From Deltaproteobacteria bacterium (GTDB lineage Bacteria > Desulfobacterota > Desulfobaccia > Desulfobaccales > 0-14-0-80-60-11): DNA of 64,000 nucleotides. The notes under the pieces are model-generated. The model was not told where the DNA came from. It searched no databases and saw only the letters and a list, made by a program, of their open reading frames with translations. The position numbers were made by a program, and so were the translations under genes. Location of the stretch: positions 30,447 to 94,446 of the forward strand of contig JAKAKP010000144.1 in assembly GCA_021813445.1 (NCBI GenBank). The letters run 5' to 3'. Positions 18,433-39,716 of this stretch are shown in pieces. Position 1 is the first letter of the stretch, and every line of letters starts with the position of its first letter.

Positions 18433-18438
18433 AAACTG

Positions 18439-18500
18439 GTAGGGTGGGCGTCTCGCCCGCCCAGGCAATTCGCCCAGGCGGAAAGCCTGGGTCACCGGTA
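18439..18500 (+). repeat. Composite double-hairpin repeat of about 62 bp (copy 1 of 3)
   Basis: The sequence gtagggtgggcgtctcgcccgcccagg...cccaggcggaaagcctggg aligns with 39806-39866 and with the reverse complement of 58858-58918. Confidence 0.75.
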
Positions 18501-18538
18501 CAAATACTTCGAACTTTGGGCTTCTTAGAGAAGAAGAC

Positions 18539-19177: not shown

Positions 19178-19202
19178 ACTATTTGAAAGAACAGGAGCAA
19201 GC

Positions 19203-21324: not shown

Positions 21325-21337
21325 GGGAGATGCCGTG

Positions 21338-23910: not shown

Positions 23911-25178
23911 TGCAGACCTTCCAGGCACATAGTCGGATTCGCCCGGTCCTGGAGCGCCTCTCCGGACGCCCGGTCTATATCTGGGGTGCAGGGCAGCAGG
24001 GCCGGGGCATGGGCCGGGTGCTGGAACGCCAGGGGGTAGAGCTCCGGGGCTACTTGGATTCCAGCCCGCAGTTGCACGGTCGCTCCGCCTTGGGCTATCC
24101 CATCTCCCCGCCCGAGGCGGTCCTGCAGCCCGCCGTCCCCAACGGCAAACCCTTCGTGATCATTGCCTCCTTTTTCTTTGAAAAGGACATCATGGAGCGC
24201 TGCCGCCTGGCCGGCCTGGAAGCAGAGCGCGATTTCATCTCCTACAAGGACCTGAAACCCTTCGATTATGCCATCGACGTCTCCGGGGCCTGCAACCTGC
24301 GCTGCCTCTCTTGCCCCCGGGCCACCCGCAGCCACCGCCACCCGCCGCCGGGGTTCATGACCCCCGGCGTTTTTACCCAGGTCCTGGATAAGATCCTGGA
24401 CGAAGACCCCCTGGTGGGCAATCTCCAGCTTTATCAATGGGGCGAGCCCCTGCTCAACCCCCAGCTGCCGGAAATCCTGGGCCTCGCCAACGCCAGGGGG
24501 CTCCCCTGCGCCCTGTCCAGCAACCTGAATTCCACGACCAACCTGGAGCCGGTCATTGCCGCAGGCCCGGCCTGGTTCCGTATCTCCGTCAGCGGCGTGG
24601 GCCGGGAATACGAGCGCACCCATACCGGGGCCACTTGGGCCAAGTTATTGAAAAACATGGAAAGCCTGGCCGAGTTGCGGGCCCGCCTGCGGCCGGACAT
24701 GAAGACCGAGGTCTACTACCATCTCTACCGCCACAATCGGGACGGCTCCCTGGACGAAGTGAAGCGGCTGTGCGAGCGCTTCGAGTTCGAGCTCCACCCG
24801 GTCTGGGCTTATCTCATCTCCCTGGACGACGTGCTGGAATATCTCGAAGGCGGCGAACTCACCCCCCAGGCCCAAGAGGCCGCAGAGATGCTGGCCCTGG
24901 GTCTGGAGCAAGGCATGGCCCTGGCCCGCAGGGAGATTCGGGAAAAGTGCCTGGTGGACCGGTGCATCCATGTCAATTGGAACCTCACGGTGAGTAACTG
25001 CATGATGTTCTTTTATCCCCAGGACAATATTGCCGCGGCCAATTTTCTGGAAACGCCCCTGGAAGAGATTTTGTCGACCCGGGTCAAAAGCAGCCTCTGC
25101 CGGCGCTGCCGGGCCCAGGCCCTGCACCGCTACTGCAACGTCTACAATACCGAACAGATCGAAGGAGCCGCCGCCTGA
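23910..25178 (+). CDS. Radical SAM enzyme, paralog 4
   Basis: The same architecture with CNLRCLSCP, YQWGEPLLNP, YHLYRHN and CRRC. TGATG overlap with paralog 3. Confidence 0.8.
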   Translation: MQTFQAHSRIRPVLERLSGRPVYIWGAGQQGRGMGRVLERQGVELRGYLDSSPQLHGRSALGYPISPPEAVLQPAVPNGKPFVIIASFFFEKDIMERCRLAGLEAERDFISYKDLKPFDYAIDVSGACNLRCLSCPRATRSHRHPPPGFMTPGVFTQVLDKILDEDPLVGNLQLYQWGEPLLNPQLPEILGLANARGLPCALSSNLNSTTNLEPVIAAGPAWFRISVSGVGREYERTHTGATWAKLLKNMESLAELRARLRPDMKTEVYYHLYRHNRDGSLDEVKRLCERFEFELHPVWAYLISLDDVLEYLEGGELTPQAQEAAEMLALGLEQGMALARREIREKCLVDRCIHVNWNLTVSNCMMFFYPQDNIAAANFLETPLEEILSTRVKSSLCRRCRAQALHRYCNVYNTEQIEGAAA

Positions 25179-25179
25179 A

Positions 25180-26649
25180 ATGAGCACGATCTTACATATC
25201 ACCCCCCACCTGGGGGGCGGGGTCGGCCGGGTCCTCCGGAATTTTTTGACCTACAGCCGGGATCATTCCGCGGATACTCACCGTCTGGCCTGCCTGGATT
25301 ACGCCAACGCCCCCTCCCAGGCCTGGGCCGCGGCCGCAGGGATCGACTTGAGCGACAACCTGGCCTGGCGTCTGCCGGCATTGCTGGAGATGGTGGCCGC
25401 CGCCGACCTGGCGGTGGTCAACTGGTGGAACCACCCCCTGCTCTTCGACCTGCTGGTGCGCCACCCCTTGCCGCCAGCCCGGGTGCTCCTGTGGTCCCAC
25501 GTTTCCGGGCATACGCCGCCCCAAAATTTTTCCCGGGCCTTGCTGGATTATCCGGACCTCTTCGTGGTGGCCACCCCTTACAGCTTCGAGGCCCCCGCCA
25601 TCCGCCGCCTGCCCCGGAAAAAACGGGAGGCCAAAGTGCGGCTGGTTTTCAGCTGTGCCGGGATCGACCACGTCGCCCAGGCCAGCCCCCGGCCCCATGC
25701 CGGTTTCCGCATCGGCTACATCGGCACGGTGGATTATGCCAAGATGCACCGGGATTTCCTGCAGATGAGCGCCGCGGCCCGGATTCCCGGGGTGCGCTTT
25801 GTGGTTTGCGGCGGCCCCAGTGAGGAGGCCATCCGCCGGGAAGCTCTAGCGGCCGGCATTGCCGAGAAATTTTATTTTCTGGGCCAGGTCGATGATGTCG
25901 CCCAGGTGCTGGCCGACCTGGACGTCTTCGGCTATCCCCTGGCCCCGGGCCATTACGGCACCGGCGAGCAGGTCCTGATCGAGGCCCTGGCCGTGGGAGT
26001 GCCGCCGGTGGTCCTGGATAACGGCCCGGAAGGCCACGTGGTTGCGGACGGCGTCACCGGTTTGGTGGTGCAAAATAGCCGGGAGTATACCGTAGCCCTG
26101 GAGCGGCTCTTCCGGGAACCGGCCTGGCGCCTGCGCCTGTCGGAAAACGCCCGGCGCCACGCCCGCCAGAGATTCACCATCGCCCAGACGGCCCAGGCCT
26201 GGCAGGCCCTTTTCCAGGAGGCCCTGGAGTTGCCCAAGAGCCCCCGGGCCTGGCCTCAAAAGAACGGCGGCGCCACCGCGGCCGAGGTCTTTGTAGCCGC
26301 ACTGGGGGAAGAAGCCAAAGAATTTGCCCGGAGCCTGGACCAGGACCAACTGAAGCGGGCCCTGGCCGCGGATCGGCGCATCGCCCGGAAGCCCGGTCTC
26401 TTCCGCAGCGCTACTCGGGGCAGCGTCTTCCATTACCAGTCGTTTTTTCCGGACGACCCGTATCTCAACCTCTGGGCGGGGCTCATGCTCCTGGCTGACG
26501 GCGACCCCGTCAAGGCCCGGGAGCGCTGCGCGGCCGCGCAAAGCCTTTTGCCGCCCTGGCGTCTCTCCCAGTATCTGCGGAAACTGGGCATCCCGGCGGG
26601 CGACACCCGGCCCCGGGAGAGCGCGGCCCCTTGCCGCGCCTCGGCCTGA
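25180..26649 (+). CDS. GT-B glycosyltransferase (GT4/Glycos_transf_1-like) with a C-terminal extension of about 130 aa
   Basis: MSTILHITPHLGGGVGRV at the N-terminus and the E-x7-E-type block GEQVLIEALAVGVPPVV...VTGLVV. The start is 1 nt after the upstream stop codon. Confidence 0.75.
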   Translation: MSTILHITPHLGGGVGRVLRNFLTYSRDHSADTHRLACLDYANAPSQAWAAAAGIDLSDNLAWRLPALLEMVAAADLAVVNWWNHPLLFDLLVRHPLPPARVLLWSHVSGHTPPQNFSRALLDYPDLFVVATPYSFEAPAIRRLPRKKREAKVRLVFSCAGIDHVAQASPRPHAGFRIGYIGTVDYAKMHRDFLQMSAAARIPGVRFVVCGGPSEEAIRREALAAGIAEKFYFLGQVDDVAQVLADLDVFGYPLAPGHYGTGEQVLIEALAVGVPPVVLDNGPEGHVVADGVTGLVVQNSREYTVALERLFREPAWRLRLSENARRHARQRFTIAQTAQAWQALFQEALELPKSPRAWPQKNGGATAAEVFVAALGEEAKEFARSLDQDQLKRALAADRRIARKPGLFRSATRGSVFHYQSFFPDDPYLNLWAGLMLLADGDPVKARERCAAAQSLLPPWRLSQYLRKLGIPAGDTRPRESAAPCRASA

Positions 26650-26712
26650 CCGCAGCTCTTGGGGGACGATTTTAGCAAGTATGCACCTGAACGACCGTAT
26701 AAGGGGAATAAT

Positions 26713-28155
26713 ATGAAAATCCTACTCATCCCGTCCTACACGCTGGATTCCGTTACCCGGGTGGGGCGCACCCCGCCCTTGTCTCTGCTTTTCCTGGCCG
26801 CGGTTTTGCGCCAGGCCGGGCACGAGCCCCGGATCCTGGACTTGGATTCGCTCCCCGCCCCCCGGAACCTGGACCGGGAAACCTTTTATCTGCAAACCGT
26901 GCTGGCAGCGGTGGCGGAGCAGCGTCCCGGGATGGTGGGGATCAATTGTCTGCTCACCACCCATTTCCCCTTTGTGCGGCGCACCGCCGAGGCCATCAAG
27001 GCCCGGCATCCCTCCCTGCCTCTGGCCATCGGCGGCATCCATCCCACCTTGTTCGCCCGGGAGATCCTGGAGCATTGTCCGGCCATCGACGCCATCGCCC
27101 TGGGGGAGGGGGAAGATCAGGCGGTGGCCCTGGCCCAGGCCTTTGCCCAGGGCAACCGGACCGCTCTAGGCCATATCGAGGCCCTGGCCTTCCGGGACCA
27201 AAACGGCGCGGTGCAGGTCACCCCCCGCCGGGGCTACATCAAAGATCTGGACCGGCTGCCGGCTCCGGCCTGGGACCTGATCCGCCTGGAGGACTACTAC
27301 ACCGATCATTCCACCTGGTACAACCCCCGGGGCCTGGAGATCAAGATGTCCATCCCCATCCTCTCCAGCCGGAGCTGCCCTTACAATTGCAGCTTCTGCT
27401 CCGCCCACAAGATGATGGGCCGGGGCCACCGCCTCCGCAGCCCGGAGCTGGTGGTGGACGAAATGCAGATGCTCTATGAGCGTCACGGCATCAATTATTT
27501 CGGCTTTGTGGACGACAATCTCACCCTGAATAAACCGCACATCCTGGCGATTTGCCGGGAGATCGTGCGCCGCGGCCTGGTCATCCAGTTCGAATCTTTC
27601 AACGGCTACAACCTCAACTCCCTGGATGAGGAGATCATGGAGGCCATGGTGGAGGCCGGCTGTGTTTACGTCATCCTCCCCATTGAACACGGCTCCGACC
27701 GCATGCGCCAGGAAATCATCGGCAAAAAGATCAGCCGGGGAAAAATCTTCCAGGTGGCGGAACTCTGCAAGCGCTATGACCTTCTGACCAGAGGGGTCTT
27801 CATCATGGGCTTTCCGGAGGAGACCCGGGAGACCCTGACCGACACCTATAATATGATCCACGACCTGCAGCTGGACATGAACCTGGTCTTCAATCTCATC
27901 CCCTATCCCGGGACCAGGATCTTTCAGCAGGCCCTGCGGGATAACCTCTTTTTAACTGAAATCGACGCCGGACGGCTCTGGGACGGCACCTGGGACCTGA
28001 ACGCCCTCCAGAGCCAATTCTATCTCCGGCCTTATCACCTGAGCCTGGAGGATTTGCAGGAGTTTCGGGAAAAGTTTGACGCCCTCAAGTTCTTTTCGCC
28101 CCGGGCCCAGGCGTTGCAGGCCCCCAGGACTCATGAGCATGTGCTCCAGACTTGA
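26713..28155 (+). CDS. B12-binding-domain radical SAM enzyme (class B)
   Basis: N-terminal B12-binding-like fold (MKILLIPSY...LSLLFLAAVLRQAGHEPRILDLD) and the SRSCPYNCSFCS radical SAM motif. AAGGGG RBS before the start. Confidence 0.8.
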   Translation: MKILLIPSYTLDSVTRVGRTPPLSLLFLAAVLRQAGHEPRILDLDSLPAPRNLDRETFYLQTVLAAVAEQRPGMVGINCLLTTHFPFVRRTAEAIKARHPSLPLAIGGIHPTLFAREILEHCPAIDAIALGEGEDQAVALAQAFAQGNRTALGHIEALAFRDQNGAVQVTPRRGYIKDLDRLPAPAWDLIRLEDYYTDHSTWYNPRGLEIKMSIPILSSRSCPYNCSFCSAHKMMGRGHRLRSPELVVDEMQMLYERHGINYFGFVDDNLTLNKPHILAICREIVRRGLVIQFESFNGYNLNSLDEEIMEAMVEAGCVYVILPIEHGSDRMRQEIIGKKISRGKIFQVAELCKRYDLLTRGVFIMGFPEETRETLTDTYNMIHDLQLDMNLVFNLIPYPGTRIFQQALRDNLFLTEIDAGRLWDGTWDLNALQSQFYLRPYHLSLEDLQEFREKFDALKFFSPRAQALQAPRTHEHVLQT

Positions 28156-29344
28156 AACCAGCCGCGCCTTAACCAGGCCCTGCCCGCAGTGCAGCGGCCG
28201 CCGGGGCCGGGAGCTCAGTCGGCTGCGCTTCCAGGGCTTCGACGACTCACCCCTGGCCGGGGCCTTCTCCCTGGCCGTCTGTGCGGAATGCGGCGCGGCT
28301 TTTTACGATACACCTTCGCAGCAAAGCGATTACGACCGGTATTACCGGGGCAACGCCTATTACTTCACTTCGGCCGCCAGCGGTAGCGGCGGTGCCACGC
28401 CCGCAGACCGGCGGCGTTTTGCAGAACTAGCCCGGCGTCTGGTCCCTTATCTGCCCCGGCAGGACGCGGCCATCTTTGACGTGGGCTGCGCCAAGGGCGG
28501 CCTCCTGGCAGTTCTGGCGGAGCACGGCCATACCCGTCTCTACGGCGTGGACCTGATGCCCGCCTGTATTGATTATGTCCGGAACCACCTGGGGCTGGCC
28601 GCGGACTTCGGCTCGGCCTTGGATCTCCCCTTTCCGGAAGTCCGGGCCGATGTCTTGATTTACTCCCATATCGTCGAGCACGTCATCGACTTGCCCGCGC
28701 TGCTGGCCGCGGCCCGGGAGAAGCTGAGTGACCAGGGGCTGGTCTATGTGGAAGTGCCGGACGCGTCCCGTTACGGGGAAAATTCCCGTTATCCCTACCG
28801 GGACCTGTACCTGGAGCACGTCAACCACTTCGACCGGGACACCCTGGTCGGCCAATTCCAGGCCGGGGGCTTCTCCCTGGTGAGCAGCGGCGGCTTTCTC
28901 CTGGAGCCTTTGCCCCAGGGTCCCGTGCCCTGTCTCTGGGCCATCTTCCGCCGGGGGGATGAGCAGAAACGAACCGCAAGCAACGGTCTGGAAGGGCGGC
29001 TCCGGGACTACCTGGCCTGGTCCCGGCAGCATCCGGCCCTGGGAAAAATCGCCCAACTGGCCTGGCAGCAAACCCCCCTTTACCTCTGGGGGCTCTCCCA
29101 ATACGCCATGCTCCTGCTGGGCCAAACCGACTTGGGCCGCTGCGCCCTCCAGGGGTTGGTGGACCAGGACCCTTACAAGCAGCAGCGGACGGTGGGCGGG
29201 AGGCCGATCCACGCCCCCGAGGTTTTACGGGAGGCCGATCCCCGGGCCGCGGTCCTGGTCACGGCCCTGGGGTACGAGGACCAGATCGCCGCGGCCCTGG
29301 AGGAGATGGGCTTTCGCGGCCTAGTGGTGACGACTGCGGGCTGA
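28133..29344 (+). CDS. Zn-ribbon class I SAM-dependent methyltransferase with a C-terminal Rossmann-like module
   Basis: CPQCSG...CAECG zinc ribbon, IFDVGCAKGG methyltransferase motif I, and a C-terminus (PLYLWGLSQYA...YEDQIAAALEEMGF) homologous to the N-termini of the four radical SAM paralogs. The layout resembles sugar C-methyltransferases. Confidence 0.7.
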   Translation: MSMCSRLETSRALTRPCPQCSGRRGRELSRLRFQGFDDSPLAGAFSLAVCAECGAAFYDTPSQQSDYDRYYRGNAYYFTSAASGSGGATPADRRRFAELARRLVPYLPRQDAAIFDVGCAKGGLLAVLAEHGHTRLYGVDLMPACIDYVRNHLGLAADFGSALDLPFPEVRADVLIYSHIVEHVIDLPALLAAAREKLSDQGLVYVEVPDASRYGENSRYPYRDLYLEHVNHFDRDTLVGQFQAGGFSLVSSGGFLLEPLPQGPVPCLWAIFRRGDEQKRTASNGLEGRLRDYLAWSRQHPALGKIAQLAWQQTPLYLWGLSQYAMLLLGQTDLGRCALQGLVDQDPYKQQRTVGGRPIHAPEVLREADPRAAVLVTALGYEDQIAAALEEMGFRGLVVTTAG

Positions 29345-29430
29345 ACTACGCAAGCATGGGAGACGCGAAACTAAAAGGTACAAATAAGGCCACCGCAGGT
29401 GAAGGACAATGACTAAATACCTCACGGCAG

Positions 29431-30222
29431 ATGGAGACAAATATGTCATATCATAACCAGATCATGGAAGATGCGGGCTTCGAGAAGCAAAAATGGCTGA
29501 TCAACCTGCTGCAACGGGAAAATGTCACCGTCGTCGACGTCGGCGGCCATGTCGGTGAAAGCATCGAAGAATATCGGACGCTATTTCCAGACTGCCGCGT
29601 CTATTCCTTTGAGCCCCATCCCGAATCTTTCATTACCCTGGAACAGCGCTGGGGCCGCTTAAACGGCGTCCACGTCGAGCGGCTGGCATTGGGCGCCAAG
29701 TCCGGAGCCGTGTCTTTTTACGCCACCAGATGTTCTTCCGCTTCCTCCTTGCTGCCCCCGGAAGGCTTCCTCCAGGAACGCAGCGCCAAAAGAAATTATG
29801 ATTATTTGAAAATGGAAGTGCCCATGGACACTTTGGACCACGTCGCCGCCCGCCTTTCTTTGAGCGGCATCGATATTTTGAAAATGGACGTCCAGGGCTC
29901 GGAACTGCAGGTTCTACAAGGCGCGGCAGGCCTCCTGCGGGCATCGCAGATCGACCTTATCTTCTCTGAAGCCCTGTTCGCTGAAACCTATGCGGGGCAG
30001 AGTGATTTTAATGAAATTTGGAGTTACCTAAAGAATTACGGGTATGTGCTTTGGGACCTGTTCCCCTTTGTCCATACGACCCTGGGCCGGTTGTGGACCG
30101 CCAACGCCATCTTTCTAAGCGCCCCCATTGCCGCCCAAATCGACCGCTGCCATCCGCCTGTCTCACCCAGGCCTGCGGACCAAATGGAGTATGGTGCCAA
30201 GAATCTTGCTGATCATTTCTAG
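29431..30222 (+). CDS. FkbM family methyltransferase
   Basis: VVDVGGHVGESIEEY...VYSFEPHPESF...LALGAKSG...LKMDVQGSE is the characteristic FkbM pattern. Confidence 0.8.
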   Translation: METNMSYHNQIMEDAGFEKQKWLINLLQRENVTVVDVGGHVGESIEEYRTLFPDCRVYSFEPHPESFITLEQRWGRLNGVHVERLALGAKSGAVSFYATRCSSASSLLPPEGFLQERSAKRNYDYLKMEVPMDTLDHVAARLSLSGIDILKMDVQGSELQVLQGAAGLLRASQIDLIFSEALFAETYAGQSDFNEIWSYLKNYGYVLWDLFPFVHTTLGRLWTANAIFLSAPIAAQIDRCHPPVSPRPADQMEYGAKNLADHF

Positions 30223-30245
30223 TTGCTCAAGGAGAACTTACCGCC

Positions 30246-33200
30246 ATGCAAGGCCATGAGATTAACCAACACCCCCTGGTCTCCATCGGCATGTTGGTTT
30301 ACAACGGCGAACGATTCCTGGCGCAATCACTCGAATCACTGCTTTCCCAAGAATATAAAAATTTTGAACTCATCATCTCGGACAATGCCTCGGAAGACCG
30401 CTCCGGGGAGATCTGTTTAAAATACCAGGCCCGGGACTCCCGCATTCAATACTCCCGCAATGAAACCAATATGGGGTCAATCTACAACGGCACCAAGGTC
30501 AGGGACCTGGCCCGGGGCAAATACTTCATGTGGGCCTCCGATCATGACCTCTGGCATCCCACCTTACTGACCAAGGCCGTGGCAGTTATGGAAAATGATC
30601 CAGAGGTAATCTTGTGCTATTCCCGGGCCCAGCGGATCGATAAAGAGGGCAATTTCCTCTGCCTGGGCCCCGACTATTTGGATACGCGAGGCATGTCGCC
30701 GCCGGCGCGCTTTCTCCATCTCATCGGTTACCATTGCGGCGGCGAATTGATTTATGGACTTTTCCGCCGGGAAAACCTCAGTCGTATCAAAACGAAAGCA
30801 ATTTGGGCCTCAGATATTTATATCTTATCGGCTTTAGCCCTGGAGGGCACTTTCGTCCACCTGCCCGAGGTGCTTTTTTCCTTGCGCAAGATCCGGGATG
30901 AAGAGATAGAAAGCCACAAGAAGACCCAGGCCCACAACCTGGACCCGGCCAGGACCAAGGAAATGCTGGCCATGGACCTGCATGCGCTCTGGCGGGAATT
31001 GGGGGAAGAATGCCTGTCCGTGGTACAAGGCAGTTCCTTCCCGGACCTGGAGAAAGAGGTTCTGCTGGAGGAAACCAAGAACTGTTTTACCACGCGTTTT
31101 GAGGTGCAATGGCCAGGCTCCCCGGAGGCTGCCGAAAACAAGGGCATCCGTGGCCAGGTTGACGCCCCCGCCCTCCTGACCGATACCGCCGCCAAAGAAG
31201 CCTGGAGAGAACGCCGCGCCGCCAGGCTGGCCCGCAAGGAGGCGAAACAAAGAATTGTGGAGGAGGCAATGCGGCGGCGGCAATATTGGGGGGGACAATG
31301 GCCCCTGGTCTCGGTGATCGTCCCCACTTACAACCGGCCGGATACCCTGGGGGCCGCCCTGCAAAGCATCCTCAATCAAACTTATAAGAACCACGAAGTC
31401 ATCGTGGTCAACGACGGCGGCCTGGACGTGAGCGGCATCGTGGGCTGGCTCAATCAGCAGGGCAACATCACCTACGTCCAGCATGACCGCCGCCGAGGCC
31501 GGGCCGCGGCCTGCAATACCGGCCTGAAACTGGCCCGGGGCCAATATATCGCTTACCTGGATGATGACTCCCTCTTCTACCCCGAGCACCTGGCGGTTCT
31601 GGCAACCGTGCTGGTGGACAGCGAGTACCGGGTGGCTTACACAGACGCGCTTCGGGCCCGTTTAGAGAATCAATGCGGCCGGAATGTGGTCGCCGCCAAA
31701 GACCTGCCTTATTCATATGAGTTTGATCAGGAGCGGTTGCTGGTGGCTAACCAGTTTCCGAGCCTCTGTCTCATGCACGAGAGATCCTGCCTGGAGCAAG
31801 CCGGCCTCTTCGATGAAAGCCTGAGTAGCCATGAGGATTGGGATTTATTGATCCGGCTTTCTTTCCGCGATAAATTTTTCCACATCAAACGGGTCACCTG
31901 CGAGTTCACCCAGGGCCAGGAAGACGACGCCACGGTCGGCCAGAAGCAGGCGGATCTCGTGCGCACCATGGAAATCGTCCATGGCAAGTATCAAGATCAC
32001 CTGCAGGACAAACCGCAGATTCAGGAGCAGCAACGGCAATTCTTGCAGCATCAAAAAGATGCCGCCCAAAGGACCTGCGCCGGATCCAGGCCTGAGACCC
32101 CCAACCCGGATCAACTGCTGCAATTGACCAATGAGGCCCTGGAGCGGGAGGACTGGGAAGCCGCGGAAACCTGTCTCCGGGACCTGATCCGCAGCCACCC
32201 GGACCTTCTGGATGGTTACCTCTCTTTGAGCGACGTCCTCACCTTGCAGGGGAAAGATCAGGACGCCAGGGAAGTCTTGCGGGCCGCCCGGGAGCTGGCC
32301 CCCGAGGCCCTGCCCCTGCTGAAGCGCCTGGGCGCCAATTGCCGGAAGCGGGGTGACTTCAGCGGCGCCTTGACCGCGTTTACCAAGGTTTTGGAGCACA
32401 CCCCCAGAGATACCGAGGCTCTCTGCCAATTAGGCGCCACTTACCTCGATCTGGGGCTCTTGCAGGAGGCCCAGACCCATTTAACCGCAGCGCTGCAGAT
32501 CAATCCCACGAATCTTGATGCCCGGAAGTTACTGGCCCAGGTGGCCCAATACCTGGCAAGTGGCGAGACCTCAGACCCGGTCTCCTCCCAGGCCCCCGCG
32601 CCTGATGCCGGGCACCGCGCTCCGGAAAAGACCGGGACCGGCCAAGCCGGGGAATTCGTCAATATCTGCATGGTTACTTATAACCGCTTGGATTTCACCA
32701 AACAGGCCATCGACGCCCTGGTCCGGCTTACCCACTATCCCTATGTGTTGACGGTGGTGGACAACGGCAGCACCGACGGCACTCCGGCGTATCTGGAAAG
32801 TCTCAAGGCCCGGGGAGTAATTAAAAACCTGATCCTGCTGGATGAAAACCTGGGAGTGGCCAAGGCCTCCAACCTGGCTTGGAGCCTGGAGCCGGAAGCC
32901 GCCTGCTATCTCAAGCTGGACAATGACATCATCCTGCAAAAGGATGGCTGGCTGGAAGACATGGTGGCGGTGATCAATCAGGTGCCTGAAATCGGCGTCC
33001 TGGCTTACAGTTTCGAGCCCCGCTCCTACCCGCTGGAAGTGTGGCACGACGTGACGATACGCATCAAAAAGGGCACCCTGGGGGGGGCCTGCCTGCTGAT
33101 CCCCAAACGCACCGAACGTCTCTTGGGGTATTTTTGCGAAGAATACGGGCTTTACGACGAAGAAGATGCGGATTACGGGGTGAGAGTCCTGGCTGCCAAC

Positions 33201-35873
33201 CTGTTGAACGCCTACATGGAGGATGAACACGTGGGCCTGGCGGAGCCCGGGGCGCCTAACCCCCAGGAAGCCTCCCCTGCCACGGGCGTCCAGGAGGAAA
33301 GCGCCTCCGGTAATTATAAGCAGTTCAAACACCAATCCAAGCGGGCCCACATGCCCTTGTTTATCCGCAATCGCAAGGCTTACTTAAATGGCAGCAAGCC
33401 CTTATTTATACCCAACCCTTATCTGCGGCCGCAGCAGCCCGCCGCGCCTGGCCCGGTGACTGCGCCCAGCCAACCGGAGTCTGATTGCCCCGCTCCTGCA
33501 GGTGAGTCGGACGGCACGCCGCCGCAGTCCCCTCTCTCCTCTGATTTTTCTGAATCTTTGGCGTCCATTATTATTCCGGTTTTCAACAACCTCTCCCTGA
33601 CCCGCCAATGTCTGGAGTCCATCGAGGCCAACACCGATGCCCCCCATGAAATCATCGTGGTGGACAACGGCTCCAGCGACGGCACCCGGGACTATCTGCT
33701 GCAGCTGGAGGCCCAGGGCCGGCTGCGGGTTATCAGCAACCGCCTGAATCTGGGCTTTGCCCGAGCCTCTAACCAGGGGGCCCAGGAGGCCCGGGGCCAT
33801 TTCCTGGTCTTCCTCAACAACGACACCATCGTCCAACCCGGCTGGCTGGAGGAATTGGTGGCCTGCGCCCGGAAAGAAGAGAAGGCCGGGGCCATCGGCG
33901 CCAAGTTGTTATATCTGGATGACACCATTCAGCATGCCGGAGTCGTCTTTAACGAAGAGATCACCCAAATCCTGCATATCTACCAGCATTATGATAAGGA
34001 CCATCCTGCGGTTAACCAAGGGAGGGAGTTCCAGGCCGTCACCGCGGCCTGCATGTTGGTCAGGAAGGACCGCTTCTTTGAAGTGGGCGGCTTCGAAGAG
34101 TGTTACCAGAACGGCTATGAGGACGTGGACCTCTGTTTCAAGCTCAGGGAGCAGGGCTACAAAGTCATTTATAATCCCCGGACCGCGGTCTATCACCTGG
34201 AGTGCCAGACCCAGGGAAGGCACGACCGGGATGCGGAAAACGGCCGCACCTTCAAGTTAAAATGGTCCGGCAAGATCCGGGGTGATGCCGCTAAATATTA
34301 TCAGGAAGACAACATTACCGTGGAAGTGATGGCGCCGCCGGACGCCGATCCCTATATCGTGGCCCATGACGGCAATGACAATGTTTTTTGGCAGGAAGCC
34401 CAAAGATACAGGCAGCAGGGCCTCTGGGATCAAGCCGAAGCCAGCTATCGCCGGGCCTTGGGGTTCAATCCCTTTGACCCCCGGAAGTTAACCATAGGCA
34501 GAGAACTGGTAAATTTGTACGAAACTCAGGGCAAACTTGACCAGGCGCAGAGATTACGCCAGATCATGGCGGCACAGGCCTCTCGCTTTAATCGTCAGCA
34601 ACAGGCGCAGGAGGCCAGCAGGCCCTCTGCCCCGGAGCAGGCAGACGGTGACCGGGCCTGCCGCCAGGGCGAGGCCCCTGCGGTCCAGCGGCCCCGGCCG
34701 CGGCCCCAGGGCCTAGCGCCCGGTAACGGGGGCGGCCCGCCACCGCCTCCGGAGGCAAGCCCCCAGGATTTTTCCTCCAACCCCATGGGGGGGCTATCCT
34801 CCATCATCATTCCGGTGTTCAACAACCTGGCCCTGACCAGACAATGCCTGGAATCCGTGTGGCGTGACACTAATGCCCCCTGTGAAATCATTGTGGTGGA
34901 TAATGCCTCCACCGACTGCACCCGGGACTACCTGCACCGCCTGGAAGCCGCGGGCCGGGTGCGGGTCATCACCAATCGCCGCAACCTGGGTTTTTCCCGG
35001 GCTTCCAACCAGGGCGCCCGGGCGGCCCGGGGCGAATACCTGCTGTTTCTCAATAACGACACCATCGTCCAACCCGGCTGGCTGGAGGCCATGGTGGCCT
35101 GCGCCCGGAAAGATGCCAAGATCGGGGTCGTGGGGGCCAAGCTACTATATCCGGACGACACCATCCAGCATGCCGGCGTGGCCTTCAATGACGAAAAACT
35201 GGTGCATCACATCTATCGCCAATATGACAAAGACCACCCGGCCGTCAATAAGGAAAGGGAATTTCAGGCGGTAACCGCGGCCTGCGCCCTGATCAAAAAA
35301 GACCTGTTTTTCCAGGCAGGCTGCTTCGACGAAAGCTACCAGAACGGCTTTGAAGATGTGGATCTCTGTTTCAGGCTGCGGCAACAGGGCTACAAAGTGG
35401 TCTATACTCCCCGGGCGGTAGTCTACCATCTGGAGAGCAAGACCATGGGCCGGCACGACCGGGATACAGAAAACTCCCGGGTCTTCCGCATGAAATGGCA
35501 GGACAAGATCGTCGGCGATGATCAGAAGTACTATGAAGAAGACCACATTACCATCGAAGTCCTGGGCAAGGAAGGCAATGTCACCATTATTTTTGCCCAT
35601 GACCGCAACGGCAACCCTTTTTGGCAGGACGCGGTGCGGTTCAAACAGCAGGGCCTCTTTAATCAGGCCGAGGCCTCCTATTACCGGGCCTTGAAGTTCA
35701 ATCCCTTCGATCCCCGAAAGGGCTACATTGCCGAGGAGCTGGCCGACCTTTATGAAGCCCAGGGCAAACATGCCCAGGCCGAGGAACTGCGCCAGCAAGC
35801 CGCGCCCCTGACTAATCGCCTGGGAATCCGGAAAGAAACAGGGAAAATCCAGGAGATGGCGGCAGCAGTTTGA
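30246..35873 (+). CDS. Giant multidomain glycosyltransferase: five GT2 domains plus TPR-like regions (1875 aa)
   Basis: GT2 N-terminal signatures lie at about aa 10 (VSIGMLVYNGERF...SDNAS), 352 (VSVIVPTYNRP...VVNDGG), 803 (NICMVTYNRLD...VVDNGSTDGT), 1106 (IIIPVFNNLSLTRQC...VVDNGSSDGT) and 1519 (IIIPVFNNLALTRQC...VVDNASTDCT). TPR-like helices span about aa 620-760, with more after domains 4 and 5. Confidence 0.85.
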   Translation: MQGHEINQHPLVSIGMLVYNGERFLAQSLESLLSQEYKNFELIISDNASEDRSGEICLKYQARDSRIQYSRNETNMGSIYNGTKVRDLARGKYFMWASDHDLWHPTLLTKAVAVMENDPEVILCYSRAQRIDKEGNFLCLGPDYLDTRGMSPPARFLHLIGYHCGGELIYGLFRRENLSRIKTKAIWASDIYILSALALEGTFVHLPEVLFSLRKIRDEEIESHKKTQAHNLDPARTKEMLAMDLHALWRELGEECLSVVQGSSFPDLEKEVLLEETKNCFTTRFEVQWPGSPEAAENKGIRGQVDAPALLTDTAAKEAWRERRAARLARKEAKQRIVEEAMRRRQYWGGQWPLVSVIVPTYNRPDTLGAALQSILNQTYKNHEVIVVNDGGLDVSGIVGWLNQQGNITYVQHDRRRGRAAACNTGLKLARGQYIAYLDDDSLFYPEHLAVLATVLVDSEYRVAYTDALRARLENQCGRNVVAAKDLPYSYEFDQERLLVANQFPSLCLMHERSCLEQAGLFDESLSSHEDWDLLIRLSFRDKFFHIKRVTCEFTQGQEDDATVGQKQADLVRTMEIVHGKYQDHLQDKPQIQEQQRQFLQHQKDAAQRTCAGSRPETPNPDQLLQLTNEALEREDWEAAETCLRDLIRSHPDLLDGYLSLSDVLTLQGKDQDAREVLRAARELAPEALPLLKRLGANCRKRGDFSGALTAFTKVLEHTPRDTEALCQLGATYLDLGLLQEAQTHLTAALQINPTNLDARKLLAQVAQYLASGETSDPVSSQAPAPDAGHRAPEKTGTGQAGEFVNICMVTYNRLDFTKQAIDALVRLTHYPYVLTVVDNGSTDGTPAYLESLKARGVIKNLILLDENLGVAKASNLAWSLEPEAACYLKLDNDIILQKDGWLEDMVAVINQVPEIGVLAYSFEPRSYPLEVWHDVTIRIKKGTLGGACLLIPKRTERLLGYFCEEYGLYDEEDADYGVRVLAANLLNAYMEDEHVGLAEPGAPNPQEASPATGVQEESASGNYKQFKHQSKRAHMPLFIRNRKAYLNGSKPLFIPNPYLRPQQPAAPGPVTAPSQPESDCPAPAGESDGTPPQSPLSSDFSESLASIIIPVFNNLSLTRQCLESIEANTDAPHEIIVVDNGSSDGTRDYLLQLEAQGRLRVISNRLNLGFARASNQGAQEARGHFLVFLNNDTIVQPGWLEELVACARKEEKAGAIGAKLLYLDDTIQHAGVVFNEEITQILHIYQHYDKDHPAVNQGREFQAVTAACMLVRKDRFFEVGGFEECYQNGYEDVDLCFKLREQGYKVIYNPRTAVYHLECQTQGRHDRDAENGRTFKLKWSGKIRGDAAKYYQEDNITVEVMAPPDADPYIVAHDGNDNVFWQEAQRYRQQGLWDQAEASYRRALGFNPFDPRKLTIGRELVNLYETQGKLDQAQRLRQIMAAQASRFNRQQQAQEASRPSAPEQADGDRACRQGEAPAVQRPRPRPQGLAPGNGGGPPPPPEASPQDFSSNPMGGLSSIIIPVFNNLALTRQCLESVWRDTNAPCEIIVVDNASTDCTRDYLHRLEAAGRVRVITNRRNLGFSRASNQGARAARGEYLLFLNNDTIVQPGWLEAMVACARKDAKIGVVGAKLLYPDDTIQHAGVAFNDEKLVHHIYRQYDKDHPAVNKEREFQAVTAACALIKKDLFFQAGCFDESYQNGFEDVDLCFRLRQQGYKVVYTPRAVVYHLESKTMGRHDRDTENSRVFRMKWQDKIVGDDQKYYEEDHITIEVLGKEGNVTIIFAHDRNGNPFWQDAVRFKQQGLFNQAEASYYRALKFNPFDPRKGYIAEELADLYEAQGKHAQAEELRQQAAPLTNRLGIRKETGKIQEMAAAV
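33555..35805 (+). repeat. In-frame tandem duplication of a GT2+TPR module inside the giant GT gene (period 1236 nt)
   Basis: The two modules (about 33555-34565 and 34795-35805) are colinear. They share an identical 34-nt run at 33819-33852 and 35055-35088, followed by an identical 22-nt run. Confidence 0.85.
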
Positions 35874-35990: not shown

Positions 35991-36026
35991 AAAAAGGCCG
36001 GCTCTTTGAGAGCCGGCCTTTTCTTT
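35991..36026. terminator. Bidirectional rho-independent terminator
   Basis: The sequence is aaaaa-ggccggctct-ttg-agagccggcc-ttttcttt, a perfect 10-bp GC stem with an A tract upstream and a T tract downstream. It sits between convergent genes. Confidence 0.85.
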
Positions 36027-36043
36027 AGCTGAAAATTACGCGC

Positions 36044-38113
36044 TTACTTGATGAGCAGAGGCACCAACAGCAGGGCCACGATGTTCACCACCTTGATCAT
36101 GGGGTTGATGGCCGGGCCAGCGGTGTCTTTGTAGGGGTCGCCCACGGTGTCGCCGGTGACCGCGGCTTTATGGGCATCGGAGCCCTTGCCGCCGTAGAGG
36201 CCGTCTTCGATGGCCTTCTTGGCGTTATCCCAGGCGCCGCCGCCGGAGGTCATGGCAATAGCCAGGAACAGACCGGTGACAATGGAGCCGATGAGCATGC
36301 CGCCCAGGGCCACGGGACCGAGACCGGGGCAGAAGCCCACGACGACCGGAGAAAGGACCGGGATCAGGGCCGGAACCATCATCTGGCGCAGTGCGCTCTT
36401 GGTGACGATGTCCACGCAGGTGCCGTATTCGGGCTTGGCGGTGCCTTCCATGATGCCGGGGATTTCCCGGAACTGCCGCCGCACTTCTTCCACCACGCCG
36501 CCCGCGGCCTTACCCACGGCCTCCATGCACAGGGCGCCGAAGAAGTAGGGCAGCAGGCCGCCGATGAACAGGCCGGCCAGGACCCGGGGGTCGGACAGGA
36601 AGAAGGTGACGTTCATGGATTCCGGGAAGGCCCGGGAGTACTCGGCGAAGAGCACCAACGCGGCCAGGGCCGCGGAGCCGATGGCGTAACCCTTGGTCAC
36701 CGCCTTGGTGGTGTTGCCCACTGCATCCAAGGGGTCGGTGATGTTGCGGATGTCTTCAGGCAGTTCCGCCATTTCGGCGATGCCGCCGGCGTTGTCGGTG
36801 ATGGGGCCGTAGGAGTCAATGGCCACCACGATGCCGGTCATGGAGAGCATGGCCACCGCGGTCAGGGCAATGGCGTAGAGGCCGGTGCCGGGGTGAGCCA
36901 GGCCGCCGCCCAGTTGGAAGGCCGCTAGGATGGCGCAGACGATGACGATAACCGGGGCGCCGGTGGACTTCATGGAGATGGCCAGGCCCTGGATGACGTT
37001 GGTGCCGTGGCCGGTGGTGGAGGCCAGGGCAATGGATTTCACCGGGGTGAAGCTCTTGGAGGTGAAGTACTCGGTGATGCCCACGATCAGACCGGTGAGG
37101 AGCACGCCGATCACCGCCAGCAAGAAGACGTTAAAGGTCGGAATGGCAAAGCCCGCCGAGCCCTTCAAAGCCTTGGAGGCCACGCCGGTCATGAACTTGC
37201 CGGCCAGGGGATAGAAGGCGATGATGGCCAGGACCGCGGCCACAATCAAGCCCTTATAGAGGGCGCCCATGACGTAGGCGGATTTGCCCAGGCGGACGAA
37301 ATAAGTGCCGATGACCGAAGCGATGATGGACACGCCGCCCACCACCAAGGGGAAGAGGATGGCCGGGGAGCCGGCGCCGTACACGGTGTAGGCCAGCAGC
37401 ATGGCGGCCACCATGGTGACGACGTAGGTCTCATAGAGGTCAGCGGCCATACCCGCGCAGTCGCCCACGTTGTCGCCCACGTTGTCGGCGATAACCGCGG
37501 GGTTCCGGGGGTCGTCCTCAGGGATGCCGGCTTCGACCTTACCTACCAGGTCGGCGCCCACGTCCGCAGCCTTGGTGTAGATGCCGCCGCCCAACCGGGC
37601 AAACACGGACACCAGGGAGCAGCCAAAGCCCAGGCCCACCAGGGCGTGCATGGCTGCATGGGGATCAACGTTCATCAGGAACTTGAAGTAGCCGGCCACG
37701 GACAGCAGGGCCAGGCCCACCACCAGCAGACCGGTAACGGAACCGCCCCGGAAAGCCACGGTCAGAGCATGGGCCATGCTGGTGAAGGCCGCCTGCGCAG
37801 TGCGCACGTTGCTGCGCACCGACACGTACATGCCCACGTACCCGGCCAGGGCCGAACCCGTGGCGCCAAGGGCGAAGCCCACCGCCACCCATTTGCCCAG
37901 GCCGAAGAAGAGCAGGACAAAGACCACCGCACCCACCATGGCTACGGTTTTATACTGCCGGTTCAAGAAGGCATTGGCCCCTTCCCGCACCGCCGCGGAG
38001 ATTTCCTGCATCCGGGCGCTCCCTGCATCCTGTTTCAGAACCCAGGTGGTGGTGAACAGGCCGTAGGCGACGCCGATCGCGCCGCACAACAACGCAAAAC
38101 TCATAATATCCAT
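36044..38113 (-). CDS. hppA: Membrane-bound H+-translocating pyrophosphatase, K+-independent type
   Basis: Full-length colinearity with H+-PPases ([28 protein letters not shown]). GNTTKA carries Lys at the K+-dependence position. Confidence 0.95.
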
Positions 38114-39112: not shown

Positions 39113-39265
39113 AAAAATATAAAAACTTCCTCACATCTGAAATATCAGATATTTCTTCTTACTATCTCTTGCAATTTATAAATAGATATTATAATCCAAA
39201 AAGACGCATTTATTATTGTTACCACTGATATTATAATCATAATTCCATATATAAATTCATGAACA

Positions 39266-39616: not shown

Positions 39617-39631
39617 TTAATTTTTATTACT

Positions 39632-39716
39632 CATTCCCAAGCCCTACTTGGGAATGCAATTACCTGCCAAGCTAAGCTTGGCAACTATCTTCATTCCCAA
39701 GTATAACTTGGGAACG
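39632..39716. repeat. Three consecutive hairpins (cattcccaag-N5-cttgggaatg; tgccaagc-taa-gcttggca; ttcccaag-N5-cttgggaa)
   Basis: The stems were read directly at 39632-39656, 39665-39683 and 39695-39714. Confidence 0.8.

What the first reader, a model, noticed from the sequence alone, without database searches (positions are those of the whole stretch)
30246..35873. A single 1875-aa polypeptide carrying five GT2 domains interleaved with TPR-like regions
Five separate GT2 N-terminal signatures (hydrophobic strand, then P.YN/FNN, about 30 aa, then hhhh-DN/DD-[GA]S.D) lie in one uninterrupted ORF, along with TPR-like helical stretches and a Pro-rich linker (aa about 1455-1510). Multi-domain polymerising GTs with helical rulers are known, such as the WbdA and WbbB types, but they usually have two or three catalytic domains. 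Five in one chain would amount to an assembly line for a complete repeat unit or a defined oligosaccharide. The four radical SAM paralogs and the five GT2 domains might be functionally matched, but this is speculative.
Basis: partly seen in the sequence, partly recalled or inferred. Interest (0 to 1): 0.6.

Follow-up and report, generated by a model that had tools for sequence, protein, structure and literature searches.

The report
Five-module glycosyltransferase in variable glycan island
One real, intact 1875-residue protein strings five working-looking sugar-adding (GT2) modules and a TPR scaffold together; it is the last gene of a strain-variable sugar-decoration island, and such giant enzymes turn out to be common but unstudied rather than unique.

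Summary
ORF 30246-35873 (+) is uninterrupted and carries five GT2 domains, each above Pfam's cut-off, a central TPR block, two short TPR-like tails and two Pro-rich linkers. All five domains keep nucleotide-binding, metal (DxD or NxD) and acid/base motifs. The identical ORF occurs on at least 9 independently assembled contigs. Against a sister lineage, the four shared domains have dN/dS of 0.16-0.26.

Five GT2 domains are not exceptional here: 35 of the 120 best database relatives have five or six.

The protein grew by accretion. The conserved core is D2-TPR-D5, and D1 is optional. The D4/D5 pair is an old duplication (66% aa). D3 is a 292-codon in-frame capture of a stand-alone GT2 that the sister lineage lacks.

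The gene closes a 19-kb accessory island (CDP-6-deoxyhexose genes, four radical SAM paralogs, a B12-radical SAM, two methyltransferases, a GT4). The island sits at a hotspot that is empty in one related genome.

The acceptor is unresolved. Giant relatives cluster with flagellar filament genes (25/41 loci) and never with Wzt, which favours protein (flagellin-type) glycosylation. However, this window has no flagellar genes and the order's type species is non-motile. The proposed matching of radical SAM paralogs to GT2 domains is unsupported.

The parts
30246..35873 (+). Complete ORF, 1875 aa: a soluble five-GT2/TPR protein. AAGGAG lies 11 nt upstream of the ATG.
   Evidence: maximum Kyte-Doolittle 19-residue mean 1.44, so no TM segment
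30270..31007 (+). D1, GT2 module (aa 9-254). Motifs: ISDNAS at aa 44, SDHD at aa 98, ASDIY at aa 188. Optional module within the family.
   Evidence: dN/dS 0.26
31008..31298 (+). Charged/helical linker between D1 and D2 (aa 255-351)
   Evidence: dN/dS 0.37
31299..32039 (+). D2, GT2 module (aa 352-598). Motifs: VNDGG at aa 388, LDDDS at aa 438, HEDWD at aa 529. Part of the conserved family core. The best solved relative is labelled PglI (GalNAc(5)-diNAcBac-PP-undecaprenol beta-1,3-glucosyltransferase) in the sequence table and AvpGT in the fold library (9jma); K4CP also matches.
   Evidence: dN/dS 0.20
32103..32555 (+). Central TPR block (aa ~620-770, about four repeats). Part of the conserved core.
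   Evidence: dN/dS 0.49
32613..33488 (+). D3 cassette (aa 790-1081; GT-A core aa 802-1034). Motifs: VDNGS at aa 838, LDNDI at aa 891, EEDAD at aa 972. A 292-codon in-frame insertion absent from sister proteins P0002/P0003. Its nearest relatives are stand-alone GT2 proteins.
33408..33545 (+). Pro-rich linker 1 (aa 1055-1100), disordered in the model
33552..34580 (+). D4 module (aa 1103-1445): GT2 (NND at aa 1191-1193, YEDVD at aa 1291, IQHAG at aa 1228, VYHLE at aa 1315), a beta hairpin pair and a TPR-like tail. Paralogue of D5.
   Evidence: dN/dS 0.155 (GT) and 0.18 (tail)
34581..34787 (+). Pro-rich linker 2 (aa 1446-1514)
   Evidence: dN/dS 0.56
34788..35870 (+). D5 module (aa 1515-1875): GT2 (NND at aa 1603-1605, FEDVD at aa 1702), a beta hairpin pair and a two-hairpin TPR-like tail. 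This is the C-terminal module conserved in all close relatives.
35993..36030 (.). GC-rich palindrome flanked by A- and T-runs: a bidirectional terminator between the GT gene and the convergent H+-PPase gene
16643..20072 (+). First four genes of the island: glucose-1-phosphate cytidylyltransferase (TIGR02623, 366 bits, above cut-off), a CDP-glucose 4,6-dehydratase-like SDR, an RmlC-type 3,5-epimerase and a further SDR
20056..25178 (+). Four tandem radical SAM paralogs (about 422-430 aa each, 43-45% identical, CNLRCxSC motif plus C-terminal Cys residues)
25180..30222 (+). GT4 glycosyltransferase (25180-26649), B12-binding radical SAM (26713-28155), Methyltransf_23 protein with a weak C-methyltransferase C-terminal match (28139-29344), and FkbM methyltransferase (29443-30222)
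14680..16506 (-). Conserved left flank of the hotspot: an ArnT-like GT-C (PMT_2). It is still present where the island is absent, so it is not part of the island.
36044..38113 (-). Conserved right flank of the hotspot: H+-translocating pyrophosphatase

Best explanation
The ORF encodes a soluble cytoplasmic 'glycan assembly line'. It has five catalytically competent inverting-type GT-A (GT2) modules joined by flexible linkers and organised around a TPR scaffold.

It is the last gene of a 13-gene accessory island in a Desulfobaccales genome. The island also makes a CDP-activated 6-deoxyhexose and modifies it or the glycan (four radical SAM paralogs, one B12-radical SAM, two SAM methyltransferases), and it encodes one GT4. 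Together the GT4 and the five GT2 modules would add up to six sugars, giving a strain-specific, methylated deoxyhexose-containing oligosaccharide or short repeat.

The protein evolved by module accretion. The conserved core is D2-TPR-D5. D1 was added in a subset of relatives. The D5 module was duplicated to give D4. A free-standing GT2 was then captured in frame as D3, so each step would lengthen or alter the glycan.

The acceptor is most likely a protein that is recognised through the TPR block and glycosylated before export, with flagellin as the leading candidate by analogy with relatives. A lipid-linked polysaccharide made by an ABC-transporter pathway is less likely.

Shown: domain content, integrity, selection, evolutionary history, island variability and the family's genomic associations. 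Inferred: sequential action, the donor sugars and the acceptor.
For: - **Domains and motifs:**. GT-A folds are confident for D5 (pLDDT 88.6) and D3 (core above 93).
- **Selection:** purifying on D1, D2, D4 and D5 (dN/dS 0.16-0.26), with linkers at 0.37-0.56.
- **Localisation:** no TM segment.
- **Island content:**
- **Accretion history:**
- **Hotspot between the ArnT-like gene and H+-PPase:** empty in L128, a 2-gene cassette in L088, a single fusion gene in L089, an Epimerase_2-TPR-GT2 protein in L129.
- **Acceptor, genomic association:** of 79 GTDB loci carrying the D4/D5-type module, carriers of at least 1300 aa lie within 10 kb of flagellin, FliD, FliS, FlaG, FlgK or MotAB in 25/41 cases (8/21 outside Nitrospirota) and next to Wzt in 0/41. 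Smaller carriers show Wzt in 8/38.
- **Acceptor, orthologous cassette:** the cassette at this very hotspot in L088 (Hexapep-MTase plus giant GT) is orthologous to one placed just downstream of flgK-flgL in L009 (65% and about 51% identity).
- **Acceptor, Geobacter:** the G. sulfurreducens KN400 relative sits between homologous NDP-sugar (CDP-sugar-type) genes and flbD-motAB.
- **Acceptor, missing export genes:** no wzm/wzt, flippase or phosphoglycosyltransferase appears in any of 9 close-relative islands.
- **Acceptor, fold:** the D5 fold is closest to polypeptide GalNAc-transferases (E 1e-15).
- **Acceptor, precedent:** GT+TPR flagellin transferases exist, namely GmaR (PMC9638930) and FlmG (PMC7591256, abstract seen).
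Against: - There are no flagellar genes anywhere in the 64-kb window or in the visible flanks of the closest relatives.
- The CgeB-like and GT9-like partners that accompany the giant GTs in Nitrospira and Geobacter flagellar loci are absent here.
- The type species of the order, Desulfobacca acetoxidans, is non-motile and has only 14 motility-category genes (PMC3156406). The organism may therefore have no flagellum.
- TPR domains also occur in polymerases of lipid-linked capsules, e.g. Cps3D (PMC11666461).
- D2-type domains are also found beside Wzt.
- D4 and D5 carry NND instead of DxD. This is invariant in the family, but activity is untested.
- No enzyme of this family has been characterised.
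Confidence: 0.45

Rival explanations
1. It is a lipid-linked glycan polymerase or assembly enzyme of an ABC-transporter-dependent (O-antigen, capsule or S-layer glycan type) pathway. The five modules build a repeat unit or adaptor plus polymer on undecaprenyl diphosphate at the inner face of the membrane. The methyltransferases cap the chain. The transporter and initiating enzyme are encoded elsewhere.
For: - Characterised multi-GT polypeptides are of this kind: WbdA, WbbB, and ORF6 of K. pneumoniae O7, which has a methyltransferase plus two GT2 modules (PMC11231755).
- The D2 and D1 modules resemble PglI, WcaA, TuaG and EpsE-type enzymes that act on lipid-linked glycans.
- Smaller proteins with the D4/D5-type or D2-type domain do sit beside Wzt.
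- TPR is used by capsule polymerases.
- The island lies next to LptFG and an ArnT-like gene.
- The organism may be non-flagellated.
Against: - No wzm/wzt, wzx/wzy, phosphoglycosyltransferase or ligase appears in this island or in 9 related islands.
- 0/41 giant relatives have Wzt nearby.
- No long coiled-coil ruler and no membrane-association element were seen (by inspection only).
- The LptFG/ArnT flank persists when the island is absent, so it is backbone rather than a partner.
Confidence: 0.3
2. It glycosylates another acceptor in the cytoplasm: a non-flagellar secreted or surface protein (adhesin, pilin, S-layer or similar), or a small molecule or peptide, as the mycofactocin transferase MftF does.
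For: - The protein is soluble and has a TPR block.
- The best NCBIfam match of D4/D5 is MftF, although far below cut-off (112-115 vs 280 bits).
- D1 and D3 resemble GalT1 of serine-rich-adhesin glycosylation (5hea).
- The island occurs in a lineage whose type species is non-motile.
Against: - No candidate acceptor gene (Ser/Thr-rich protein or RiPP precursor) was seen in the island.
- All family-level context points to flagellar loci or to Wzt, not to other acceptors.
Confidence: 0.17
3. Only some modules are catalytic. One or more (for example one of the D4/D5 pair with NND, or D1) serve as carbohydrate-binding or scaffolding pseudo-enzymes, so fewer than five linkages are made.
For: - D4 and D5 lack the first Asp of DxD.
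- Duplicated modules often subfunctionalise.
- D1 has the highest dN/dS of the four shared GT modules (0.26).
Against: - NND is invariant across 12 diverse family members, together with QH, EDxD and HxE motifs. It is therefore the family's normal active-site form.
- D4 and D5 are equally constrained (dN/dS 0.155 and 0.156).
- All five keep the acid/base and nucleotide-binding positions.
Confidence: 0.08

Closest known systems
Multi-module glycan polymerases of ABC-transporter-dependent O-antigen pathways: WbdA (2-3 GT4 modules), WbbB (3 GTs), K. pneumoniae O7 ORF6 (methyltransferase, coiled coil, 2 GT2) (PMC11231755)
   Same: Several glycosyltransferase modules sit in one soluble polypeptide, one module per linkage. 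Methyltransferases are associated with the pathway. Deoxyhexose donor genes lie in the same cluster.
   Different: This protein has five GT2 modules rather than two or three, and a TPR block instead of a coiled-coil ruler. No wzm/wzt lies in this or related islands. Sequence similarity is limited to the generic GT2 fold, and none of the five domains reaches any curated NCBIfam cut-off.
GT-plus-TPR flagellin O-glycosyltransferases: Listeria GmaR (GT domain plus TPR; PMC9638930) and Caulobacter FlmG (TPR plus GT; PMC7591256)
   Same: They are soluble cytoplasmic enzymes combining a GT domain with TPR repeats thought to hold the protein substrate. The GmaR GT domain is detected by the D4/D5 profile (22ao, E 6e-8). 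Giant relatives of this protein lie in flagellar filament loci.
   Different: GmaR and FlmG have one catalytic domain and add one sugar. This protein has five catalytic domains. It is not linked to flagellar genes in this window, and similarity to GmaR is weak and no better than to many other GT2 enzymes.
Uncharacterised giant GT2/TPR (with or without B12-radical SAM, methyltransferase or GT4) proteins of Thermodesulfobacteriota, Geobacter/Geomonas, Nitrospira and others, e.g. G. sulfurreducens KN400 2597-aa protein (P0082) and P0002-P0025
   Same: This is the true family. It shares the D2-TPR-D5 core at 50-73% identity, the same C-terminal module with the FNPFDPRK tail, and the same kind of island (CDP-sugar genes, radical SAM, methyltransferases, GT4).
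   Different: The exact five-module arrangement with the D3 insert is found only in this organism's own contigs. Relatives carry other accessory modules such as B12-radical SAM, methyltransferase or GT4 fusions.
Polypeptide GalNAc-transferases (GT27) as the structural neighbour of the D4/D5 module
   Same: They are the best Foldseek matches to the D5 model (E about 1e-15, TM about 0.52 over the GT-A part). Both are GT-A enzymes, and the GT27 enzymes act on Ser/Thr of proteins.
   Different: Sequence identity is 15-20%. GT27 enzymes are retaining, with DxH and a lectin domain. This module has NND, an EDxD acid/base motif typical of inverting GT2, and a TPR-like tail.
TPR-containing capsule polymerases Cps3D/Cps7D (PMC11666461)
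   Same: They are multi-enzyme polypeptides with an integral TPR domain needed for processive elongation and dimerisation.
   Different: Their catalytic domains are GT-B/TagF-like and they act on a lipid-anchored capsule primer within kps-type loci. None of these features was found here.

Membership tests
Glycosyltransferase family 2 (Pfam PF00535, GT-A fold), tested for each of five domains | Significant match to the family model above the curated cut-off | tested here: met
   Five separate stretches score 50.8-108.7 bits against a cut-off of 23.3.
Glycosyltransferase family 2 | GT-A Rossmann-like fold | tested here: met
   AlphaFold models: D5 module pLDDT 88.6; D3 core above 93. Foldseek returns GT-A enzymes only. 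D4 is 66% identical to D5. D1 and D2 align to the solved GT2 enzymes GalT1, K4CP and 9jma (PglI/AvpGT); they were not modelled.
Glycosyltransferase family 2 | Metal-binding DxD motif and downstream acidic catalytic residue | tested here: inconclusive
   D1 has DHD, D2 DDD and D3 DND, and all have an acidic motif downstream. D4 and D5 have NND, invariant in the subfamily, plus EDVD. The motifs are present but activity was not assayed.
ABC-transporter-dependent O-antigen polymerase/terminator systems (WbdA-WbdD, WbbB type) | wzm/wzt transporter genes in the same cluster | tested here: not met
   None was found in the 64-kb window or in related islands. 0/41 giant relatives have Wzt nearby.
ABC-transporter-dependent O-antigen polymerase/terminator systems | Extended coiled-coil molecular ruler separating terminator and polymerase modules | tested here: inconclusive
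   Only a ~40-residue charged helix (aa ~300-345) and TPR hairpins are visible. No dedicated coiled-coil predictor was available.
ABC-transporter-dependent O-antigen polymerase/terminator systems | Acceptor is an undecaprenyl-diphosphate-linked glycan | not testable with these tools
   This needs biochemistry. No phosphoglycosyltransferase gene lies in the island.
GT+TPR flagellin glycosyltransferases (GmaR/FlmG type) | Soluble protein combining a GT domain with TPR repeats | tested here: met
   TPR block at aa 620-770; no TM segment.
GT+TPR flagellin glycosyltransferases (GmaR/FlmG type) | Genetic linkage to flagellin or flagellar genes | tested here: not met
   No flagellar gene lies in the window. 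Linkage is seen only for relatives: 25/41 giant carriers, L009 and G. sulfurreducens.
GT+TPR flagellin glycosyltransferases (GmaR/FlmG type) | Flagellin is the substrate | not testable with these tools
   It is unknown whether the organism has a flagellin gene. The type species of the order is non-motile.
Giant GT2/TPR family of Thermodesulfobacteriota and allies (uncharacterised) | Collinear D2-TPR-D5 core with the conserved C-terminal tail | tested here: met
   Identity is 60-69% (D2), 50-58% (TPR) and 67-73% (D5 module) to P0004-P0025.

The most novel reading that the evidence does not exclude
The protein is a collinear, cytoplasmic oligosaccharide assembly line that builds a defined glycan of up to six sugars directly on a protein held by its TPR domain. 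Its product is lengthened or re-specified in evolution by inserting or duplicating whole GT modules, as seen in the D3 capture and the D4/D5 duplication, in the manner of PKS/NRPS module shuffling. Radical-SAM- and B12-dependent tailoring would yield unusual C-methylated deoxysugars. In a non-flagellated host it would define a new class of target for this enzyme family.
Probability: 0.15. Interest if true: 0.7.

Novelty: new variant of a known kind. Interest (0 to 1): 0.4.

Why it matters
Multi-module glycosyltransferases are the machines that fix the sequence of bacterial surface glycans. The studied ones have two or three modules.

This locus offers a natural series at one chromosomal site: empty site, 3-module, 4-module and 5-module proteins, with a cleanly delimited 292-codon module insertion. 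That series could be used to test whether adding a GT module adds a sugar, and how TPR scaffolds choose the acceptor.

It also flags a very large, uncharacterised enzyme family. Members are often fused to B12-radical SAM domains and often sit in flagellar loci of environmental bacteria, and their chemistry is unknown.

For annotation purposes, the main message is sobering: 'five GT2 domains' is common in this family and not in itself a discovery.

Tried and rejected
1. **Assembly artefact or duplicated-module collapse: rejected.** The D4/D5 copies are only 71-80% identical in DNA, the ORF is identical on at least 9 contigs, and the frame is conserved in a sister lineage.
2. **D3 as a degenerate remnant (lowest Pfam score): rejected.** It retains all invariant residues of stand-alone homologues and folds confidently.
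3. **Deletion of D3 in the sister lineage rather than insertion here: rejected as less parsimonious.** None of 120 relatives has a D3 orthologue.
4. **ArnT-like/LptFG neighbours as functional partners: rejected.** They persist at the empty site.
5. **Radical SAM count matching GT2 count: no support**.
6. **Assigning donor or linkage specificity from NCBIfam or PDB neighbours: led nowhere.** No domain reaches a curated cut-off.
7. **Walking beyond the window to look for flagellar genes: failed.** The exact-sequence look-up of the first ORF found nothing.
8. **Literature searches for characterised members** of this giant family or for Geobacter flagellin glycosylation found none.
9. **The metagenome scan with D2-TPR** returned only distant relatives, with both flagellar and Wzt contexts.
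10. **Rfam and tRNA scans of the window** found nothing.
Full report
**1. Observation**

The ORF at 30246-35873 (+) is real and uninterrupted: 1875 aa with an ATG start. AAGGAG lies 11 nt upstream of the start. A GC-rich palindromic terminator at 35993-36030 is shared with the convergent H+-pyrophosphatase gene.

Pfam finds five separate PF00535 (GT2) stretches. Scanned piecewise, each exceeds the 23.3-bit cut-off:

| Domain | Residues | Bits |
|---|---|---|
| D1 | 13-136 | 90.8 |
| D2 | 356-469 | 102 |
| D3 | ~806-919 | 50.8 |
| D4 | 1107-1227 | 104 |
| D5 | 1519-1643 | 108.7 |

Other features:
- A strong TPR block occupies aa ~620-770.
- Weak TPR-like tails follow D4 and D5.
- Pro-rich linkers lie at aa 1055-1100 and 1471-1515.
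- There is no hydrophobic segment; the maximum 19-residue hydropathy is 1.44. The protein is therefore predicted to be soluble.

**2. Is the long ORF an artefact?**

This is unlikely, for three reasons:
- The D4 and D5 modules are 66% identical in protein and 71-80% in DNA. That is far too diverged to be collapsed or expanded by an assembler.
- The identical 1875-aa product is called on at least nine contigs from independent assemblies, one at NCBI and several at ENA.
- A sister lineage (L130, 81-88% nt identity, same chromosomal site) keeps the frame through D1-D2-TPR-D4-D5.

**3. Are the modules competent?**

Motif positions are:

| Domain | Nucleotide-binding | Metal motif | Acidic motif |
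|---|---|---|---|
| D1 | ISDNAS (44) | SDHD (98) | ASDIY (188) |
| D2 | VNDGG (388) | LDDDS (438) | HEDWD (529) |
| D3 | VDNGS (838) | LDNDI (891) | EEDAD (972) |
| D4 | VDNGSS (1139) | LNNDT (1190) | YEDVD (1291) |
| D5 | VDNAS (1551) | LNNDT (1602) | FEDVD (1702) |

- **D4 and D5.** The NND form is invariant across 12 diverse members of the subfamily, together with QH and HxE motifs. It is therefore the subfamily's normal active site.
- **D3.** This is the weakest Pfam match, yet it retains every residue that is invariant among 19 stand-alone homologues. It is modelled as a GT-A domain with pLDDT above 93 over its core.
- **D5 module.** The model has pLDDT 88.6. It shows a GT-A domain, a small beta-hairpin sheet and two TPR-like helical hairpins.
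- **Selection.** Nei-Gojobori dN/dS against the sister lineage:

| Region | dN/dS |
|---|---|
| D1 | 0.26 |
| D2 | 0.20 |
| D4 | 0.155 |
| D5 | 0.156 |
| TPR block | 0.49 |
| Linkers | 0.37-0.56 |

All four shared catalytic modules are therefore maintained by selection. The refutation criterion 'fewer than five domains or most degenerate' is not met.

**4. Is five unusual?**

For characterised enzymes, yes. WbdA has two or three modules, WbbB three, and the O7 ORF6 two GT2 modules plus a methyltransferase (PMC11231755).

For this family, no. A search of 5.8 billion proteins returned hundreds of giant GT2/TPR proteins, many fused to B12-radical SAM, methyltransferase or GT4 domains. They come mainly from Thermodesulfobacteriota, Geobacter/Geomonas, Nitrospirota, Verrucomicrobiota and cyanobacteria.

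Counting GT2 domains in the 120 best hits with an iterated HMM gave the following:

| GT2 domains | Proteins |
|---|---|
| 2 | 3 |
| 3 | 45 |
| 4 | 37 |
| 5 | 27 |
| 6 | 8 |

Ranking by summed score favours multi-domain proteins. No member appears to have been characterised, and no domain reaches a curated NCBIfam cut-off.

**5. How the protein was built**

Segment-wise comparison shows:
- **Core.** The conserved core of the close family is D2 (60-69% identity), TPR (50-58%) and the D5 module including its tail (67-73%). In 23 of the closest relatives the D5 module is C-terminal.
- **D1.** It is present only in a subset.
- **D4/D5.** The duplication is shared with P0002 and P0003 (84% and 83%).
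- **D3.** It has no orthologue in any of the 120 relatives.
  - Its nearest relatives are free-standing GT2 proteins of 250-345 aa, up to 56% identical.
  - In the sister locus L130, window positions 32613-33488 (aa 790-1081, 292 codons) are simply absent. The frame is preserved and both flanks are collinear.
  - D3 is therefore an in-frame capture of a stand-alone GT2 into the TPR-D4 linker.
- **Adjacent gene.** Between the two lineages the gene just upstream was also swapped: an FkbM methyltransferase here, a Methyltransf_23 gene there. The B12-radical SAM and methyltransferase are fused there.

**6. Context**

The ORF ends a 19-kb co-directional cluster at 16643-35873:
- glucose-1-phosphate cytidylyltransferase (TIGR02623, 366 bits);
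- a CDP-glucose 4,6-dehydratase-like SDR;
- an RmlC-type epimerase;
- a second SDR;
- four radical SAM paralogs (43-45% identical);
- a GT4;
- a B12-binding radical SAM;
- a Methyltransf_23 protein with a weak C-methyltransferase C-terminal match;
- an FkbM methyltransferase.

GatA places the organism in Desulfobaccales (91% to a MAG of that name).

In related genomes (GatA 88-91%) the flanks are syntenic but the content between the ArnT-like GT-C gene and the H+-PPase gene varies:

| Locus | Content at the site |
|---|---|
| L128 | Nothing except a small MazE-like gene |
| L088 | Two-gene cassette |
| L089 | Single fusion gene |
| L129 | Epimerase_2-TPR-GT2 protein |
| This window | 13 genes |

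The island is thus accessory and hypervariable, as expected for a surface-glycan determinant. The ArnT-like and LptFG genes belong to the backbone, not to the island.

**7. Acceptor**

A GTDB scan with the D4/D5-module profile gave 80 loci. Neighbours were clustered, representatives were checked by Pfam, and 79 loci were tabulated:

| Carrier size | Loci | Flagellar genes within 10 kb | Wzt nearby |
|---|---|---|---|
| At least 1300 aa | 41 | 25 (17/20 Nitrospirota, 8/21 other phyla) | 0 |
| Under 1300 aa | 38 | 4 | 8 |

The flagellar genes counted are flagellin, FliD, FliS, FlaG, FlgK and MotAB.

Further links to flagellar loci:
- In G. sulfurreducens KN400, the relative lies between homologous NDP-sugar (CDP-sugar-type) genes and flbD-motAB.
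- The two-gene cassette occupying this very hotspot in L088 is orthologous to a cassette just downstream of flgK-flgL in L009. The Hexapep-methyltransferase is 65% identical, and the giant GT is about 51% identical over about 1000 aa.
- None of nine close-relative islands has wzm/wzt, a flippase or an initiating phosphoglycosyltransferase.
- The D5 fold is closest to polypeptide GalNAc-transferases.
- GT+TPR flagellin transferases are known: GmaR and FlmG.

Evidence against a flagellin acceptor:
- The window has no flagellar gene.
- The CgeB-like and GT9-like partners seen in flagellar loci are absent here.
- The type species Desulfobacca acetoxidans is non-motile with 14 motility-category genes (PMC3156406).
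- TPR domains also serve capsule polymerases.
- D2-type domains occur beside Wzt as well.

My estimates for the acceptor:
- protein, with flagellin as the leading candidate: about 0.45;
- lipid-linked polysaccharide: about 0.3;
- another protein or a small molecule: about 0.17.

**8. Verdict**

The 'assembly line' reading is reasonable. The claim of rarity and the radical SAM/GT2 matching are not supported. Related islands with 3- or 4-GT2 proteins have a single SPASM radical SAM.

The protein is a new variant within a large, uncharacterised family of multi-module GT2/TPR enzymes. Its most useful feature is the natural series of module gain at one hotspot.

Noticed in passing
window 20056-25178 (+): Four tandem radical SAM paralogs (422-430 aa, 43-45% identical, CNLRCxSC motif plus conserved C-terminal Cys residues). 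Related islands carry a single SPASM-type copy, so this is a lineage-specific fourfold expansion of unknown chemistry. In one assembly (L001) the second copy is split into 269-aa and 150-aa pieces.
   Followed up: partly
window 26713-29344 (+) versus L130:434-3100: The B12-binding radical SAM and the Methyltransf_23 gene overlap by 17 nt here. In the sister lineage they form one 888-aa fusion protein. Many relatives fuse B12-radical SAM domains directly to the GT2 modules (e.g. P0010-P0012, P0015, P0017).
   Followed up: partly
window 29321-30243 versus L130:3044-4393: The gene just upstream of the giant GT differs between sister lineages, inside otherwise collinear DNA of about 83% identity. 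It is an FkbM methyltransferase here and a 410-aa Methyltransf_23 protein there, i.e. a gene replacement.
   Followed up: partly
L128:19571-20040 (related genome, JGI 3300037484): This is the empty form of the hotspot. H+-PPase is followed only by a 74-aa MazE-like antitoxin gene and then the ArnT-like gene. The same metagenome holds a Hexapep-MTase plus giant-GT cassette on another contig (L090), next to response-regulator/HD-domain genes. That flank also borders the island in L087, which suggests a second insertion site.
   Followed up: partly
window 39110-39640: A roughly 550-bp stretch of very low G+C (by eye; the enclosing 2-kb window is 47% against about 60% elsewhere) in the 855-bp gap between the 230-aa membrane protein gene and mauE. 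It holds a 116-aa hydrophobic ORF (39266-39616, -). Relatives L088 and L129 have only 27-62 bp there, so it looks like a foreign insertion.
   Followed up: partly
window 39630-39720: Two near-identical hairpins (TTCCCAAG-N5-CTTGGGAA) sit at the G+C-rich edge of the AT-rich insert. There is no Rfam match.
   Followed up: no
L011-L036 (Nitrospira), L006 (G. sulfurreducens), L025, L039: In flagellar loci the giant GT2 protein is regularly accompanied by a Glyco_trans_1_2/DUF3880 (CgeB-like) protein of about 600 aa and one or two GT9 (heptosyltransferase-like) proteins. An unannotated 181-aa protein also recurs in the Nitrospira loci. This looks like a conserved, undescribed flagellar glycosylation gene set.
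   Followed up: partly
window 6112-7020 (-): An AbiTii-family (abortive infection) gene lies among housekeeping genes (DUF116, fmt, def) in a locally low-G+C stretch (51.7% at 6001-8000).
   Followed up: no
window 46095-47874 (+): A split transketolase (N-terminal and pyrimidine-binding/C-terminal halves as two genes) is conserved in the flank. A similar split pair sits inside the glycan island of relative L005, beside NeuB and a C-methyltransferase.
   Followed up: no
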